In this document: positions 4,081 through 52,356 of the stretch, in pieces
Layout: each line of letters begins with the position of its first letter
How positions within the stretch are numbered: position 1 is the first letter of the stretch
Origin: a virus
Lineage: Duplodnaviria; Heunggongvirae; Uroviricota; Caudoviricetes
Direction: 5' to 3' (one strand)
Virus record (IMG/VR): IMGVR_UViG_3300021400_000141
Location: 257,354-321,353 of that record
DNA: 64,000 nt
Position numbers and translations under genes: made by a program
The notes under the pieces: model-generated
Databases searched by the model: none
What the model was told of the DNA's origin: nothing
The model's input: only the letters and a program-made list of their open reading frames with translations

Positions 4081-6420
4081 ATGAAACCGATACACGACGA
4101 ACTTTGGAAACTCCCGCAGGACACGCTTGCTCTTGCATCGGATTATGACATCTCCCCCGTTGTCAATGACGAGGAGATTGCTGGCATGGATTTCTTGAAG
4201 GATGATTCATCTGGCAAGGTCAATTATGACGAGATAAAGTACGAGATACCGACTGATACGAACCAGATACTCCAGTCAAATGTGGAGTATGGTCTTTATG
4301 AGCTGTCGGAAGCTGACCGTGTATTGAAGGACAATGTAAAGTATATCAGTTTGAAATACATCTGCCGCAACCTGAACCGTACGGTTGATTGGGTTATCGA
4401 CAGGGATATTCTGCACAATTTGTTCTACATTATCGACAACAACGGGGACCGTCTGTACCGTGAACCAGAGGTGGTGGAACGGTGCAAGCTTTTGTGCATT
4501 GAGTTCAGAAGGAGAGACCTCCCGTTTTCCACGTTCGGTAGAATGGAGGCCGCTGAATACCTTGGAATGACGCAACAGCAGTTTGAAGCAGTGGCGAAGG
4601 ACATTCCGTTCAAGGAACAGGTTTCTACTGACGGAGAAAAACACATCGTATATTACAAGAAGGACTTGGATGTATACAATCGTCATCACAAGTTCTTGGA
4701 CATGGTTGCAAAGGCTAACGCAACAATTTCTTTCGAGGATGTTGTTGACATCATCGGTAATGTAGCGAAGTCAAACGAATTCTTTGCTGTCTACAAGCCA
4801 AGGAAGATGAAGACTGTTGATGGCTATGTGACGGACAGGTACTCGTCGGACGACATCAGGAAATTCATCGCTTCTCACAGGGGTGACACCTCGATTTACA
4901 ACCCTTTGAAGGAAATAATTTCGAGCGACATGGCTAGGATATATGTCGGTGCGAATAAGAAGGAATGGCTTCGTGCTCGATACGAAAAGAAACTGATACG
5001 TCCTGTCAGGAAGGCCAACGGTTCAAAGCTCAGTCGTTCAGGAAAGGGATTTGCTATGTTCCTTGTGGACGACCTTGACAGGTATATTTACGAAAGGGAT
5101 TGTGGAGACCTCTATGGCCTCGGTAGAGAGTTCATAACTAGGAAGCACATCAAGAACAGATACGGTGTCAATGACAAGTGGATTGACACTTATGCAAAAG
5201 ATAGCGAAAAGGTTCACGTAAAGCTGGCTTCTGGAAACATAATGACATGGGCTACTTATCACGACAGGAAGGTTAAGGAGGTGATGGTAGGTATCAACTA
5301 TGTCGATATCGAGGAGTTAATCAAGGGTGGAAACTTCATTGACATCACCCGTGAATTTATCAGGAAGAAACTGAAGATTGACAAGGAAGAAAACGCCCAG
5401 AGGTACAAGAAGGGCAAGTTCTCAATCCTCATGATGCACAAGAAGTGCGTTGAGAGTAGGAAGAAAAGCCCGTACCAGTATCACGAAGTTACGGACGATG
5501 ATGTTACCCTTGCTCTTGACACGAAGATTAACGAACCCCGTCTTGTCATGGACGAGAAGAAACGTCTACTGAAAAAGATTAAGCAGAATGAAATCGACCA
5601 TGACAACAAGATGAGGGATATCTTAGGTTTGACCCCAGTTAAGTGTTCTGCCGTTTCGAATAACGATGTGGTAAAGTCCTTGGCTTCTCCACAGGTGTTC
5701 CGCTGCATATACAAGAGGGGCAATGTGGACATGTACAAACGATTTGACGGTGGATACAAGACTTACGATTACATTTACCACCCTAACCATTTCTTCACGA
5801 AGAAGAATAGTGCGGACAGGGTTTCCCTCAGTGTCAAGGCCTTGTTCTCTGGCATGTTCAAGATGGAAGAGGAAACATTCGCGTGTCCCCCAGATTGGTT
5901 CATTTACATGGACAGTTCTACCTGCATATCTGACTTTTTATGGAAGGACAAGCTGGATAGGCTTCCCACTGATGTCGGCATGGTAGGTGTATATGGGTGG
6001 AAAAGTGTCCCTAGCTCGTTCAACTGGCACGAAAGCCACGACTCATACGGGTGCTATGAAGGGTTGTCGATTAAGGATAACAGCACCAGAAAAATCATAG
6101 GAGAACTTGGTTTCGGTGAGCTTACCGATGTTGCCATTCTCGGTGGCCCCGTATTTGCCATCAGGGCCAGCATGATACCCGATATTCTCCGTGTACGCAT
6201 TTTGAACGGCTACGTGCTAGGAGATGACCACATTGCTGCTGAACTCTCGATGTTCTGCCACGAGTGCCGCCAGAGGGTGTGCGTGATGGATACGAATGTC
6301 GTGACCTGCATAGACTATATGGATTATGTCGGTGGAGACGACTGGGACGAAGACCAAATCAATTTCGTTTTGCGTTGGCAGCACCGTCTGCCCAAGTTGA
6401 AGGCACCACCGACATTATAA
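4081..6420 (+). CDS. 779-aa protein with several Xis/MerR-like HTH repeats and a C-terminal glycosyltransferase-like domain
   Basis: EAAEYLGMTQQQF...YYKKDLD-type repeats; C-terminal WFIYMDS...VGMVGVYG resembles a GT-A fold. Confidence 0.45.
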   Translation: MKPIHDELWKLPQDTLALASDYDISPVVNDEEIAGMDFLKDDSSGKVNYDEIKYEIPTDTNQILQSNVEYGLYELSEADRVLKDNVKYISLKYICRNLNRTVDWVIDRDILHNLFYIIDNNGDRLYREPEVVERCKLLCIEFRRRDLPFSTFGRMEAAEYLGMTQQQFEAVAKDIPFKEQVSTDGEKHIVYYKKDLDVYNRHHKFLDMVAKANATISFEDVVDIIGNVAKSNEFFAVYKPRKMKTVDGYVTDRYSSDDIRKFIASHRGDTSIYNPLKEIISSDMARIYVGANKKEWLRARYEKKLIRPVRKANGSKLSRSGKGFAMFLVDDLDRYIYERDCGDLYGLGREFITRKHIKNRYGVNDKWIDTYAKDSEKVHVKLASGNIMTWATYHDRKVKEVMVGINYVDIEELIKGGNFIDITREFIRKKLKIDKEENAQRYKKGKFSILMMHKKCVESRKKSPYQYHEVTDDDVTLALDTKINEPRLVMDEKKRLLKKIKQNEIDHDNKMRDILGLTPVKCSAVSNNDVVKSLASPQVFRCIYKRGNVDMYKRFDGGYKTYDYIYHPNHFFTKKNSADRVSLSVKALFSGMFKMEEETFACPPDWFIYMDSSTCISDFLWKDKLDRLPTDVGMVGVYGWKSVPSSFNWHESHDSYGCYEGLSIKDNSTRKIIGELGFGELTDVAILGGPVFAIRASMIPDILRVRILNGYVLGDDHIAAELSMFCHECRQRVCVMDTNVVTCIDYMDYVGGDDWDEDQINFVLRWQHRLPKLKAPPTL

Positions 6421-46947: not shown

Positions 46948-46976
46948 TTGACAGTTGTCAATTATCTTTCTATATT
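46948..46976 (+). promoter_or_regulatory. Sigma70 promoter driving the second tRNA operon
   Basis: TTGACA-N17-TATATT. Confidence 0.8.
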
Positions 46977-47109: not shown

Positions 47110-47343
47110 CGAATTTTAATGATACAAGCATACAACCGAGACATTGGAGCAACAATTCTCGGTGGCGATTAAATCGGCTTTGGATTTGCTAGTCCGAGAC
47201 AGAGATATTCAGCCGATTGACTGACTGGGCGACCGTTAATGTATGCTGAATCGATGTGGACCACAGGTGTGCGGTGCGACAGGGGAAGGTCAACCCTTCT
47301 TACGAGTCCCCTCGGGTCGAGTATCATTATTTATTTTTCTTTT

Positions 47344-47432: not shown

Positions 47433-47437
47433 CTAAA

Positions 47438-47507
47438 AGTCAGTGTCGTTTGAAAGCGTTACTTAGGATGAAGCTAAAAATAACACGCTTTCTCTTTTTA
47501 CCTGACT
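47438..47507 (+). ncRNA. Free-standing copy A of the conserved RNA module (Y-RNA-like candidate)
   Basis: AGTCAG/CTGACT and GAAAGCGT/ACGCTTTC stems; TGTCG, TTACTT and TTTTTACC motifs. Confidence 0.6.
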
Positions 47508-47515
47508 TCTTTTGT

Positions 47516-47646
47516 TCCAGGATAGCTCAGTTGGTTAGAGCACGTAATAATACCTGTCCGTTTTTCCCCTGTGCAAGGGTGGCGTTTGGAATGGGTTACT
47601 TAGCCTGTTAAGCTCGGGGTCGTAGGTTCGAGTCCTACTCCTGGTA
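47516..47646 (+). tRNA. tRNA-Asn(GTT) interrupted by a 57-nt structured insert at position 28/29 (47545-47601)
   Basis: Removing the insert gives CGAGC-CTGTTAA-GCTCG and a 74-nt cloverleaf. Confidence 0.75.
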
Positions 47647-47657
47647 CTAATAAAATT

Positions 47658-47744
47658 TCCAGTGTCGCTAGAAACCGATACTTCGCTCTGTCTTTTCACA
47701 CAGATTGCCCGAATGGGCGTACACGGTTTCGCTTTTTACCTGGA
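47658..47744 (+). ncRNA. Free-standing copy B of the conserved RNA module
   Basis: TCCAG/CTGGA and GAAACCG/CGGTTTC stems; TGTCG, TACTT and GCTTTTTACC motifs. Confidence 0.6.
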
Positions 47745-47749
47745 TTTCT

Positions 47750-47874
47750 GCCGGCGTAGCTCAGTGGTAGAGCGCGTATAAACCTGTTCGCTTTTTCTCC
47801 CGCAAGGGTGGCGACAGAATGGGTTACTTAGTCTGCAAAACTCGTGGTCACAGGTTCGAATCCTGTCGCTGGCA
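47750..47874 (+). tRNA. tRNA-Cys(GCA) interrupted by a 53-nt structured insert at position 28/29 (47777-47829)
   Basis: Removing the insert gives CGAGT-CTGCAAA-ACTCG and a 72-nt cloverleaf. Confidence 0.75.
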
Positions 47875-48146
47875 CTAAGCAATCTTTCCGTTTCAGCGTA
47901 GCAGCAAACGGTGCCGATTCGCAGGCGGCACACCAAACCGTATGAGTAGCCTTTCCGTGGCTGGAAGGTGGCGAAAGACATAAGGTGATTCTTGCGGATA
48001 TATCGGTCGCTCCGATGAAATTTCCTTTTGTAAACGGCTGTTTCGCACAGCGCAAGCTCCCTTTCGGAAACAAAAGTTAAAAGGGATTATGATAGCAGAT
48101 GACCAAAAAGCCATTGGTAGTATGCGAAGGAACAAATGCGAGGTTA

Positions 48147-48220
48147 GGGATTCTAGCTCAATTGGTGAGAGCTACGGACTCATAACCCGTCGGTTCCGAG
48201 TTCAAGTCTCGGGGGTCCCA
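48147..48220 (+). tRNA. tRNA with CAT anticodon (probably Ile2, possibly Met)
   Basis: Cloverleaf, loop CTCATAA; third CAT tRNA in the array. Confidence 0.75.
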
Positions 48221-50386: not shown

Positions 50387-50521
50387 CCCACAGTAGCTCA
50401 GTCTGGTAGAGCGCTAGTAAATGAAACAGTCTTCCGACTTTTTCCCTGCAAAGGTGACGCAGGAATGACTTACTTCGATAATGGTGACTGGATGTCGTAG
50501 GTTCAAATCCTGCCTGTGGGA
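50387..50521 (+). ncRNA. tRNA body (Pro-like) with the conserved module in the anticodon arm; no canonical anticodon recoverable
   Basis: Intact acceptor, D and T arms; insert has TTCCGACTTTTTCCC...GGTGACG...GAATGACTTACTT. Confidence 0.65.
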
Positions 50522-50612: not shown

Positions 50613-50763
50613 GCCGACGCCTCCCCGTCAATCTGGCGACAGGTTGATTAACGGTAGGGGAGGGTTCCTCTTACAACTTTCTCGGTGAAAATCGTTGCGA
50701 TGTGAGAGTTACTTAGATTGCCATAACATTAATCTTTTGAAAGTTCGACTCTTTCCGTCGGCA
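50613..50763 (+). ncRNA. Highly derived tRNA-like RNA with an enlarged D arm and a GTTACTT-containing insert
   Basis: GCCGACG/CGTCGGC acceptor; GAAAG-TTCGACT-CTTTC T-arm; CCTCCCC/GGGGAGG long stem. Confidence 0.55.
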
Positions 50764-50776
50764 TGTTTTTCTTTAC

Positions 50777-50914
50777 GCCAGATTAGCTCAATGGTAGAGC
50801 TCCAGGCCAAAAAACAGCACTTTCGCTTTTCCCAATCCCATGGATTGTGGTGTATGAAATGTGTTACTTAGGATAACACCCAGGAGGTTGTCGGTCCGAG
50901 TCCGACATCTGGCT
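50777..50914 (+). ncRNA. tRNA body with the conserved module in the anticodon arm, immediately upstream of the TROVE gene
   Basis: GCCAGAT/ATCTGGC acceptor, D and T arms; insert has TTTCGCTTTTCCC...GGTG...GAAATGTGTTACTT. Confidence 0.65.
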
Positions 50915-50966
50915 ATACTTTTTTAAACAACATCAACAATTCCTAATCACAACAAAGGAGATGATT

Positions 50967-52307
50967 ATGGCGTCGATTAACAAGAGAAAGGTATCTACCC
51001 CTGTGTTTACTCACGAGGGTGGAAAGGCTTCACACATCGGTTTCGAGGAGAAGTTGCAGCGTACTGTGCTGTGCTGCCTACTGAACGAGGATACGTTCTA
51101 TGAGGACGGAGAGTCCATCAAGGACCGCATCAAGGAATACATGGGCAAGGTCAGCACCGAGTTCGCAATCGCGACTCTGAACAAGGCCAAGCACGAGTAT
51201 CACCTTCGTCATACCCCGTTGTTCATGCTTACTGTGCTCGCAAGTCAGGGTAAGCTGACTAAGGAACTTGTTTATTCGACGGTAACCCGTGTTGATGACA
51301 TCACCGAGTTGCTCGCCATGTACCTCGCAGACGGCAAGAAGAAGACTCTTCCGAAGCAGTTGCAGAAGGGCTTGGCTATGTCGTTCGACAAGTTCGACGA
51401 GTACCAGTTCGGTAAGTACAAGGGTAGCAAGAAGACGGTTTCCTTGAAGGATGCAGTCATGCTGTGCCACCCGAAGGCACCGAATGACGAGAAGAACGCT
51501 CTCTACAAGAAGATTGTGGACAATAGCCTTGCTACTCCGCTTACTTGGGAGACTGAGTTGAGCGCTGGTAAGGACAAGAAGACGGTCTTCGAGAACCTTC
51601 TTTCAACGAACAAGCTGGGTGCACTCGCCCTGTTGAGAAACCTCCGCAACATGGAGCAGGCTCAGGTCTCGCAGCATGCAATCGTAGACGGCATCGCAAA
51701 GATGAACGTGTGTGGTATCATGCCGTACAACTTCTACACCGCAAACAAGCACAGCGATGGAACCTACTCCAAGCAGCTTGAGGCAGCAATGCTTAGGGCA
51801 GCTCGTGAGACGTTCGACAAGTTGGAGGGTAACACCTTGTTCATGGTCGATACGTCGGGTTCTATGAACAACTCTTTGGCAGGTAAGAGCGAGGTCTCTC
51901 GTGGAGAGGCTGCCGCATCCCTCGCTGCCATCATGGATGAGGTCTGTGAGTTCGACAAGGTTTACACCTTCGATATGGATGCACACGCAACCACATCCAA
52001 GGGCTTTGCACTTGCCGACCGTTGTGCTCGTTGCACTGGCGGTACTAACCTTTACGGTTGTACAAACAGTGCGGTTAGAGCTAACACCAGACCGTTTGAC
52101 CGTGTGATTATCATCACCGACGAGCAGTCTATTGGTGGTTCCTTCGACAAGGATGTTCTCCGCATCCCGCACAAGTACATCGTGAACGTTGCCCCTTACC
52201 AGTTCGGTATTGCATACGGTGACTTCATCCACATCAACGGATTCAGCGACGGTATTTTCAAGTACATCGCTGAGTACGAGAAGATGGGTGCAAAGAGCGA
52301 AGAGTAA
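50967..52307 (+). CDS. Ro60/TROVE-domain RNA-binding protein with a vWA domain
   Basis: THEGG, HLRHTPL, LTWETELS, LALLRNLRNM; vWA DTSGSM and IIITDEQ; SD AAGGAG. Confidence 0.9.
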   Translation: MASINKRKVSTPVFTHEGGKASHIGFEEKLQRTVLCCLLNEDTFYEDGESIKDRIKEYMGKVSTEFAIATLNKAKHEYHLRHTPLFMLTVLASQGKLTKELVYSTVTRVDDITELLAMYLADGKKKTLPKQLQKGLAMSFDKFDEYQFGKYKGSKKTVSLKDAVMLCHPKAPNDEKNALYKKIVDNSLATPLTWETELSAGKDKKTVFENLLSTNKLGALALLRNLRNMEQAQVSQHAIVDGIAKMNVCGIMPYNFYTANKHSDGTYSKQLEAAMLRAARETFDKLEGNTLFMVDTSGSMNNSLAGKSEVSRGEAAASLAAIMDEVCEFDKVYTFDMDAHATTSKGFALADRCARCTGGTNLYGCTNSAVRANTRPFDRVIIITDEQSIGGSFDKDVLRIPHKYIVNVAPYQFGIAYGDFIHINGFSDGIFKYIAEYEKMGAKSEE

Positions 52308-52329: not shown

Positions 52330-52356
52330 GGGTGGCCGAAAGGCCATCCGTTTTTT
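52330..52356 (+). terminator. Intrinsic terminator after TROVE
   Basis: GGGTGGCC-GAAA-GGCCATCC followed by TTTTTT. Confidence 0.7.

What the first reader, a model, noticed from the sequence alone, without database searches (positions are those of the whole stretch)
47438..47744. Two free-standing RNAs are circular permutations of the tRNA inserts
Seen: copy A (47438-47507) and copy B (47658-47744) read stem-CAG-TGTCG-NNN-GAA-NNNG-(T/A)TACTT-[variable loop]-AC..TTTC.C-TTTTT-ACCTG-stem. The tRNA inserts carry the same two strands in swapped order: AAC..TTC(C)G-TTTTT-CCC-[loop]-GG-TG(G/A)CG-NNN-GAAT..TTACTT. The same helix is therefore closed at opposite ends. Known: Y RNAs bind Ro60 via a stem formed by their 5' and 3' ends next to a pyrimidine-rich loop. 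Inference: A and B are Y-RNA-topology ligands of the neighbouring TROVE protein.
Basis: partly seen in the sequence, partly recalled or inferred. Interest (0 to 1): 0.82.

Follow-up and report, generated by a model that had tools for sequence, protein, structure and literature searches.

The report
Short phage Y RNAs beside Ro60
Two small RNA genes inside a giant rumen phage's tRNA cluster are ordinary-layout Y RNAs, the partner RNAs of the Ro60 protein encoded 3 kb downstream, and the tRNA-shaped genes next to them carry the same Ro60 "handle" with its two strands in swapped order, which bears on how Y RNAs arose from tRNAs.

Summary
A (47437-47508) and B (47658-47744) fold as terminal stem P1, a bulged U, a 2-bp P1b, an internal loop (CG-NNN opposite a U-rich strand), the helix P2 (GAAANCG:CGNUUUC), then NUACUU and a variable apex. 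The tRNA-shaped genes T1, T2, T3 and T5 carry the same module, but with P1 closed by a tetraloop and P2 opening into the tRNA body.

A covariance model built only from A/B and their orthologues hits nothing else in the 419-kb phage genome. It does find RNAs on the TROVE strand beside distant viral and bacterial TROVE genes. After one iteration it gave 209 viral and 253 bacterial hits, and all but one were on the TROVE strand. All 14 modelled pairs show compensatory changes.

The long hits carry a T arm, a closed acceptor and a D arm, so they are canonical YrlA. One of them is matched by Rfam RF02553. The short hits, like A and B, are YrlB-like.

A and B are therefore new members of the known Y-RNA kind. 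The unusual layout belongs to the tRNA-shaped copies, which are un-permuted YrlA. Binding to Ro60 and discrete transcripts remain untested.

This scan has noted the same arrangement on other DNA (e1-5399032, e1-1681824).

The parts
47437..47508 (+). Copy A, a 72-nt short Y RNA (YrlB-like). P1 47437-47443 pairs with 47502-47508. Bulged U at 47444. P1b 47445-47446 pairs with 47500-47501. Loop CGUUU 47447-47451 lies opposite UCUUUUU 47493-47499. P2 47452-47458 pairs with 47486-47492. UUACUU at 47459-47464. A-rich apex at 47465-47485.
   Evidence: Sequence; fold; R1 72.7 bits, E 3e-16; R2 65.2 bits; orthologues in 7 related phages keep the module while the apex is replaced.
47658..47744 (+). Copy B, an 87-nt short Y RNA (YrlB-like). 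P1 47658-47662 pairs with 47740-47744. Bulged U at 47663. P1b 47664-47665 pairs with 47738-47739. Loop CGCUA lies opposite GCUUUUU. P2 47671-47677 pairs with 47724-47730. AUACUU at 47678-47683. The apex (47684-47723) holds two hairpins.
   Evidence: R1 85.8 bits, E 9e-20; R2 75.6 bits. The first apical hairpin has a Lys/Glu-anticodon-like loop in the orthologues.
47516..47646 (+). T1, a tRNA-shaped RNA (acceptor, D arm, T arm, Asn-type anticodon-like hairpin). It carries the same Ro60 module with P1 closed by a loop, that is, tRNA-topology (un-permuted) YrlA.
   Evidence: ARAGORN and Rfam see only part of it as a tRNA.
47750..47874 (+). T2, a second tRNA-topology YrlA (Cys-type anticodon-like hairpin, GCAA tetraloop closing P1).
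   Evidence: Rfam tRNA 48.9 bits with a 66-nt insertion.
50387..50521 (+). T3, a tRNA-topology module carrier (UGACG-CAG-GAAUGAC-UUACUU).
50613..50763 (+). T4, a remodelled tRNA-like RNA. It has a long hairpin in place of the D arm and a degenerate module ending in GUUACUU.
   Evidence: Read from the sequence only; conserved in relatives. Not modelled.
50777..50914 (+). T5, a tRNA-topology module carrier that ends 46 nt before the TROVE start codon.
50961..52307 (+). Ro60/TROVE protein gene (448 aa), the presumed protein partner.
   Evidence: Pfam PF05731, E 3e-15; 5737 homologues at E<=1e-5, many with a vWA domain.
46948..46976 (+). Sigma-70-like promoter match (TTGACA-17-TATATT, 11 of 12) upstream of this block of the tRNA array.
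   Evidence: Consensus scan only.
52330..52349 (+). Terminator-like hairpin plus U-run just after the TROVE gene. It suggests that A, B, T1-T5 and TROVE share one transcription unit.
   Evidence: Consensus scan only.

Best explanation
A and B are short Y RNAs of the bacterial and phage YrlA/YrlB lineage. Each consists of the conserved Ro60-binding handle plus a small variable apex. The handle is a terminal stem formed by the RNA's own 5' and 3' ends, a bulged U, 2 bp, an internal loop with G(U/G)CG-NNN opposite a U-rich strand, a 7-bp helix, and then NUACUU.

They are probably transcribed with the tRNA array. They would be released by the tRNA-processing cuts on their neighbours: a 3' cut on tRNA-Tyr or T1 lying 3-10 nt upstream, and an RNase P cut on T1 or T2 lying 5-8 nt downstream. 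They would then bind the phage Ro60 ring through the handle.

Because they lack the tRNA-like body, they most likely act as gates or competitors, or as carriers of small display hairpins. The tRNA-shaped T1-T5 present the same handle on a tRNA body.

Shown here: the structure, its conservation and covariation, family membership, and exclusive association with TROVE genes. Inferred: transcription as discrete RNAs, the processing route, Ro60 binding and the functional role.
For: (1) Structure. The MFE folds match the module. A and B differ by compensatory pairs.

(2) Selection. In phages whose TROVE protein is 84-96% identical, the handle is almost invariant. The apex is replaced outright, 21 nt versus 36 nt in A.

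(3) Family. Model R1, built from A/B only, gives 24 hits at E<=10 in distant TROVE loci, all on the TROVE strand. It finds nothing else in the 419-kb genome. The iterated model R2 gives 209 viral hits, all on the + strand. Of the best 148, found in 65 of 75 loci, 135 lie upstream at a median of 233 nt and none lies inside the gene. R2 also gives 253 hits in 80 bacterial TROVE loci, 252 of them on the TROVE strand.

(4) Covariation. All 14 of 14 pairs show double changes across 136 distinct sequences. 97.8% of cells are paired, against 64% when shuffled and 39-59% when slid.

(5) Link to the known family. Long hits contain a T loop (38 of 40), with a closed acceptor and a D arm in the examples I read. 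L058 5817-5941 is matched by Rfam YrlA RF02553 at E 4e-8. Short hits (108) have a T loop in only 3 cases, as expected for a YrlB-like class.

(6) Published features are present. The GNCG of the GNCGAAN0-1G motif sits near the 5' end and the conserved YUAY follows the helix (PMC4201824). The locus lies within 4 kb of Ro60 on the same strand.

(7) Precedent. Thermus phage phiLo Ro60 binds two upstream Y-like RNAs (PMC12135203).

(8) Contigs from four metatranscriptome libraries in four studies span A-T1-B-T2 or parts of it. This is weak evidence, because DNA carry-over is not excluded.

(9) The genome also encodes RtcB and a CCA-adding-type enzyme.
Against: There are no binding data and no evidence of discrete 72- and 87-nt transcripts or of their ends. 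The RNA-library data are contigs only.

The published motif GNCGAAN0-1G is not met literally: A has GUCGUUUG and B has GUCGCUAG.

A and B lie 3.2-3.5 kb from the TROVE gene, with tRNAs and two small ORFs between. In other loci the median distance is 233 nt.

No Rfam family matches A or B even at E<=10.

Within the close phage clade the handle hardly varies. Covariation support therefore comes from the A-versus-B comparison and from distant homologues that were aligned to the model itself.
Confidence: 0.8

Rival explanations
1. A and B are processing spacers. Their stems only help fold or punctuate the polycistronic precursor so that the adjacent tRNA-shaped RNAs are cut correctly, and they are degraded afterwards without binding Ro60.
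For: They sit 3-10 nt from tRNA-type genes on both sides. Contigs from RNA libraries bridge them to their neighbours.
Against: The conserved internal-loop letters (GUCG, the U-run, UACUU) are those of Y RNAs that stand alone beside TROVE genes without any flanking tRNA. The other inter-tRNA spacers of this array carry no such element.
Confidence: 0.07
2. A and B carry the handle but serve another protein, for example RtcB, PNPase or a host tRNA enzyme, rather than the phage Ro60.
For: The genome encodes RtcB. The B orthologues show anticodon-loop-like hairpins. The distance to the TROVE gene is larger than usual.
Against: The handle is found essentially only beside TROVE genes and on their strand, in viruses and in bacteria. 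The homologous region is the Ro60 contact in the characterised systems (PMC4201824).
Confidence: 0.08
3. A and B are decaying leftovers of duplications of the tRNA-embedded module and have no function.
For: There are multiple paralogous copies in one array, and the apex of A is unstructured.
Against: Both are retained at the same positions in seven phages. The handles are intact, A and B differ by compensatory changes, and divergence is confined to the apex. Both score as full-length matches (model positions 1-86 of 86) to a model dominated by distant sequences.
Confidence: 0.04

Closest known systems
YrlB (Y RNA-like B) of Salmonella Typhimurium and Mycobacterium smegmatis (Chen et al. 2013/2014; PMC4201824)
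   Same: It is a short Rsr/Ro60-bound RNA encoded next to YrlA and the Ro60 gene on the same strand. It has a terminal 5'/3' stem and the GNCG-type motif near the 5' end, lacks the full tRNA-like body, and in M. smegmatis is processed from a common precursor with YrlA.
   Different: A and B have GUCG-NNN-G instead of GNCGAA(N)G. They lie inside a 36-gene phage tRNA array, 3.2-3.5 kb from the Ro60 gene. They alternate with tRNA-topology rather than canonical YrlA. No immunoprecipitation data exist for them.
YrlA (Rfam RF02553; crystal structure described in 10.1101/312249)
   Same: It has the same Ro60-binding handle: P1, the internal loop, P2 and the conserved YUAY. My A/B-seeded model hits the outer stems of RNAs that RF02553 recognises.
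   Different: YrlA nests a tRNA-like body (T arm, closed acceptor, D arm) inside the handle. A and B have only a small apex there, so they are not YrlA. T1-T5 carry the tRNA body but with an open acceptor and a closed handle, which is the reverse connectivity.
Yrl1 and Yrl2 of Thermus phage phiLo (PMC12135203)
   Same: These are two Y-like RNAs upstream of a phage Ro60 gene, each with a 5'-3' stem flanking an internal bulge that carries a CGAA-type motif. Binding to the phage Ro60 was shown in that system.
   Different: The phage lineage and host differ, no tRNA-array context or tRNA-shaped partners are described there, and I did not compare the sequences.
Metazoan and Deinococcus Y RNAs (Rfam Y_RNA; Yrn1)
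   Same: The principle is the same: Ro60 binds a bulged helix formed by the RNA's two ends, and a variable module points away from it.
   Different: No Rfam Y RNA model matches A or B, and the apical modules are unrelated.
Circularly permuted tRNA genes of red algae and archaea (cited in 10.1101/312249)
   Same: They are a precedent for the same RNA fold being encoded with its chain ends at different places.
   Different: Those precursors are re-joined into normal tRNAs. Here both layouts appear to be end products, and nothing indicates re-joining.

Membership tests
Bacterial/phage Y RNA (YrlA/YrlB lineage) | Encoded within about 4 kb of a Ro60/TROVE gene on the same strand (criterion of Chen et al. 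2014) | tested here: met
   A ends 3453 nt and B ends 3217 nt upstream of the TROVE start at 50961, on the same strand.
Bacterial/phage Y RNA (YrlA/YrlB lineage) | The 5' and 3' ends pair to form the stem that carries the Ro60-binding region | tested here: met
   Folds. Compensatory pairs in P1, P1b and P2.
Bacterial/phage Y RNA (YrlA/YrlB lineage) | GNCGAAN0-1G motif near the 5' end | tested here: inconclusive
   GNCG is present at the homologous position. The following letters are UUUG in A and CUAG in B; the orthologues of B have AUAG. Distant family members found with the A/B model mostly read G(G/U)(C/U)G-(A)AG/UAG.
Bacterial/phage Y RNA (YrlA/YrlB lineage) | Conserved YUAY after the handle helix | tested here: met
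   UUAC in A and AUAC in B. NUACUUC is the commonest start of the apex in 150 aligned family members.
Bacterial/phage Y RNA (YrlA/YrlB lineage) | Bound by the Ro60 orthologue (co-immunoprecipitation or EMSA) | not testable with these tools
Bacterial/phage Y RNA (YrlA/YrlB lineage) | Expressed as a discrete small RNA | tested here: inconclusive
   Contigs of four metatranscriptome libraries cover the region and bridge A-T1-B-T2. Contigs cannot show ends, and DNA carry-over is possible.
YrlA (Rfam RF02553) | tRNA-like body (T arm, acceptor-like stem-loop, D arm) nested inside the handle | tested here: not met
   The apices of A (21 nt) and B (40 nt) contain no T loop or D arm. RF02553 does not match them even at E<=10, although it does match a control YrlA in L058.
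tRNA | Cloverleaf with acceptor, D, anticodon and T arms | tested here: not met
   ARAGORN and Rfam tRNA do not call A or B. Only the neighbours T1 and T2 are partly called.

The most novel reading that the evidence does not exclude
The operon encodes a two-layout Y-RNA system. The tRNA-wired YrlA RNAs (T1-T5) have a free acceptor end that can be cut by RNase P, extended with CCA and perhaps charged. They tether Ro60 to tRNA-handling or tRNA-attacking enzymes. The handle-only RNAs A and B, released by the same tRNA cuts, compete for Ro60 or display anticodon-loop look-alikes as decoys for anticodon nucleases. On this reading the un-permuted layout, found here mainly in viral contigs (11 versus 68 canonical in viral loci; 1 versus 105 in bacterial loci, by a heuristic count), would be the ancestral or transitional form from which canonical, permuted YrlA arose.
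Probability: 0.3. Interest if true: 0.8.

Novelty: new member of a known kind. Interest (0 to 1): 0.45.

Why it matters
Y RNAs are hard to find by sequence, and Rfam holds only YrlA among the bacterial types. Showing that A and B belong to a large, covarying class of handle-only Y RNAs explains part of the unannotated spacer DNA in phage tRNA arrays. In the TROVE loci searched here this class is more numerous than YrlA itself.

The permutation link is the more valuable result. It identifies the odd "inserts" in tRNA-shaped genes as Ro60 handles, so those genes are YrlA wired like real tRNAs. Published work treats YrlA as resembling a circularly permuted tRNA and asks how it arose. A natural un-permuted form next to handle-only forms makes that question testable. 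It also gives a ready set of RNAs for testing what Ro60 does during infection.

Tried and rejected
- Rfam at gathering and at E<=10 gave no Y RNA family for A or B. RF02553 needs the tRNA-like core, as the L058 control shows.
- blastn against INPHARED phages found only short tRNA-like matches.
- A 3'-half sequence profile was uninformative because it is too short.
- I planned a third covariance model for the tRNA-topology form and dropped it. MAFFT put P2 one column out of register between clades. I used per-sequence folding and an acceptor-pairing heuristic instead, so those counts are approximate.
- My first regex class 'D>M>T' included false positives from tandem canonical YrlA (L024, L038, L050, L061). 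I removed them by the acceptor test.
- Read laying offered only contigs, so there is no information on ends or strand. Run X1 had no contig over A, which proves nothing.
- The reviews PMC10870794 and PMC6047535 are not held, so 'not described' rests on the papers I could read.
- I rejected a terminator or attenuator reading of A and B: the U-run lies inside the internal loop, not after a GC stem, and the scan calls no terminator there.
- I rejected a coding reading: no ORF of 80 aa or more on the + strand overlaps A or B.

Full report
CONTEXT. The window is bases 257354-321353 of a 419,423-bp virus record with direct terminal repeats. Bases 42.9-52.8 kb hold 36 ARAGORN tRNA genes on the + strand. 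Within this array lies a 448-aa TROVE/Ro60 gene at 50961-52307 (Pfam PF05731, E 3e-15). It has thousands of homologues, many carrying a vWA domain. Metatranscriptome libraries labelled sheep, bovine or unspecified gut metagenome hold the stretch. The genome also encodes RtcB and a CCA-adding-type nucleotidyltransferase.

THE OBSERVATION. A (47437-47508) follows tRNA-Tyr by 3 nt and precedes the tRNA-shaped T1 by 7 nt. B (47658-47744) lies between T1 and T2, with gaps of 11 and 5 nt.

Both read the same way from the 5' end: P1, a bulged U, G-U, C-G-NNN, GAAANCG, (U/A)UACUU and an apex; then CGNUUUC, NC-UUUUU, A-C and the P1 3' strand. Free folding returns this structure, with z -2.5 for A and -3.0 for B. 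A and B differ by double changes at two P1 pairs and one P2 pair.

T1 (47516-47646), T2 (47750-47874), T3 (50387-50521) and T5 (50777-50914) contain the two strands in the opposite order. After the D arm comes the P2 3' strand, then the U-run, then a 3-6-bp hairpin closed by a 3-7 nt loop. After that come U-G(G/A)-(C/U)G, NNN, the P2 5' strand and UUACUU, followed by an anticodon-like hairpin, the T arm and the acceptor 3' strand.

Folding the inserts alone reproduces this in about 19 of 23 cases.

NOT CHANCE. The strict 5' motif pattern has seven matches in the whole genome; four are A, T1, B and T2, and the other three look unrelated. A profile of the 5' half built only from 20 RNAs of unrelated viral contigs ranks B, A, T1, T5 and T2 as the five best hits in 419 kb.

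CONSERVATION. Seven viral contigs encode TROVE proteins 84-96% identical to this one. All keep A, B and T1-T5 in the same order. In A and B the handle is nearly invariant, while the apex is replaced. This is the pattern expected of an RNA whose stem is the functional part.

WHAT FAMILY. I built model R1 from A/B and their orthologues only. In 75 distant TROVE-bearing viral loci (26-44% protein identity) it found 24 matches at E<=10. All were on the TROVE strand and nearly all lay just upstream of the gene. In the phage's own genome it found only A and B.

Five matches are 117-134 nt long. Between the two handle strands they contain a T arm, an acceptor-like stem closed by a loop, and a D arm, which is the published YrlA architecture (PMC4201824). 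One of them, L058 5817-5941, is matched end to end by Rfam YrlA RF02553 at E 4e-8, below that family's gathering score.

The iterated model R2 found 209 viral matches at E<=0.01, all on the + strand. Of the best 148, in 65 loci, 135 lie upstream at a median of 233 nt, 13 lie just downstream and none lies inside the gene. 108 are shorter than 110 nt, and 3 of these have a T loop. 40 are longer, and 38 of these have one. R2 again found only A and B in the own genome.

In 80 bacterial TROVE loci (Acidobacteriota, Bradyrhizobium, candidate phyla and others) R2 found 253 matches at E<=0.001, 252 of them on the TROVE strand.

Across 136 distinct sequences all 14 modelled pairs show double changes. 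97.8% of cells pair, against 64% after shuffling and 39-59% when the partner is slid. The alignment was fitted to the model, which favours the structure, but the margin is large.

A and B are thus handle-only members of the YrlA/YrlB lineage, the class called YrlB in Salmonella and M. smegmatis. The literal GNCGAAN0-1G motif is only partly met: GNCG is present and the next letters differ. The conserved YUAY is present.

THE PERMUTATION, RE-READ. The literature describes canonical YrlA as resembling a circularly permuted tRNA with a closed acceptor (10.1101/312249). Relative to that, A and B are ordinary, and T1-T5 are the rearranged ones: a YrlA body wired like a real tRNA.

This form is not unique to this phage. 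With an acceptor-pairing test I found it, with 7 of 7 acceptor pairs, in at least nine other viral loci: L029, L031 (twice), L033, L048, L057, L076, L077, L083 and L089. It often stands 5-12 nt from handle-only RNAs. Among the 80 bacterial loci it appeared once, against about 105 canonical forms. These counts are heuristic.

I found no description of this layout in the papers I could read. Two key reviews are not held. Earlier notes of this scan report the same arrangement in a related rumen phage and in another large phage.

MECHANISM (INFERRED). A strong promoter-like site at 46948-46976 and a terminator-like hairpin at 52330-52349 bracket the block. Contigs from four RNA libraries bridge tRNA-Tyr, A, T1, B and T2, or parts of that run. 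DNA carry-over cannot be excluded, and contigs show no ends.

The tight spacing suggests that tRNA 5' and 3' processing of the tRNA-shaped neighbours releases A and B. In M. smegmatis, YrlA and YrlB likewise derive from one precursor, and RNase P cuts YrlA.

By homology with characterised Y RNAs, the handle binds the outer face of the Ro60 ring. Lacking a tRNA body, A and B would gate or compete. Alternatively they could display small hairpins.

The first apical hairpin of B is relevant here. In the orthologues it has a 5-bp (4-bp in the L005 clade) stem with a 7-nt loop one letter away from this phage's Lys(UUU), Glu(UUC) or Lys(CUU) anticodon loops. In this window the loop is 8 nt. I have not tested it.

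VERDICT. Binding and expression remain open. A and B themselves are new members of a known kind. The added value lies in the link they provide to the tRNA-wired YrlA copies.

Noticed in passing
window 47151-47322: One metatranscriptome run (X1) holds a 202-nt contig at depth 220, the highest in the stretch. It joins 47245-47322 directly to 47151-47274, and the same 30 nt stand at both contig ends. This is the signature of an isolated 172-nt circular (or tandem) molecule lying between tRNA-Ala and tRNA-Tyr. The segment is structured (z -2.4 with its flanks), matches no Rfam family, and is 89-96% conserved in the three closest relatives only. It contains GGUGGCGAUUAAAUCGG, which weakly resembles a Y-RNA 5' half. 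The genome encodes RtcB.
   Followed up: partly
L057 5690-5813; L029 5543-5669; L031 4974-5099 and 5205-5329; L077 5494-5621; L083 4089-4214; L089 100-225; L076 6702-6829; L033 2376-2505; L048 107-233: tRNA-wired (un-permuted) YrlA RNAs with perfect 7-bp open acceptor stems occur beside distant viral TROVE genes, usually 5-12 nt from handle-only Y RNAs. A heuristic count gives 11 against 68 canonical forms in viral loci, and 1 against 105 in bacterial loci.
   Followed up: partly
window 47601-47620 and 47828-47847; L031 about 5290-5305: The hairpin after UUACUU in T1 and T2 has a 7-nt loop identical to the phage's own tRNA-Asn (CUGUUAA) and tRNA-Cys (CUGCAAA) anticodon loops. Together with C27-G43 and G28-C42 it completes a 5-bp anticodon stem, so the Ro60 handle sits as an extra arm between positions 28 and 29. 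An unrelated viral locus (L031) shows the same CUGUUAA loop.
   Followed up: partly
window 47919-48200: A contig at depth 355 in RNA library X2 covers the unannotated spacer between T2 and tRNA-Met (48147). This may be another abundant non-coding RNA.
   Followed up: no
L096-L175 (e.g. L115, L111, L121, L138): Bacterial TROVE genes, especially in Acidobacteriota, are preceded by long same-strand arrays of Y RNAs. One locus can hold up to about eight to ten model hits, mixing short and long forms.
   Followed up: no
G000 C1 347254-348321 and 38511-38894 (outside the window): The phage encodes an RtcB RNA ligase and a CCA-adding-type nucleotidyltransferase. Both fit a tRNA/Y-RNA repair or maturation theme.
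   Followed up: partly
L040 40-4049 and 7325-7822: Another TROVE-bearing viral contig also embeds its Y RNAs in a large tRNA array, with about 20 Rfam tRNA hits. The tRNA-array context therefore recurs.
   Followed up: no
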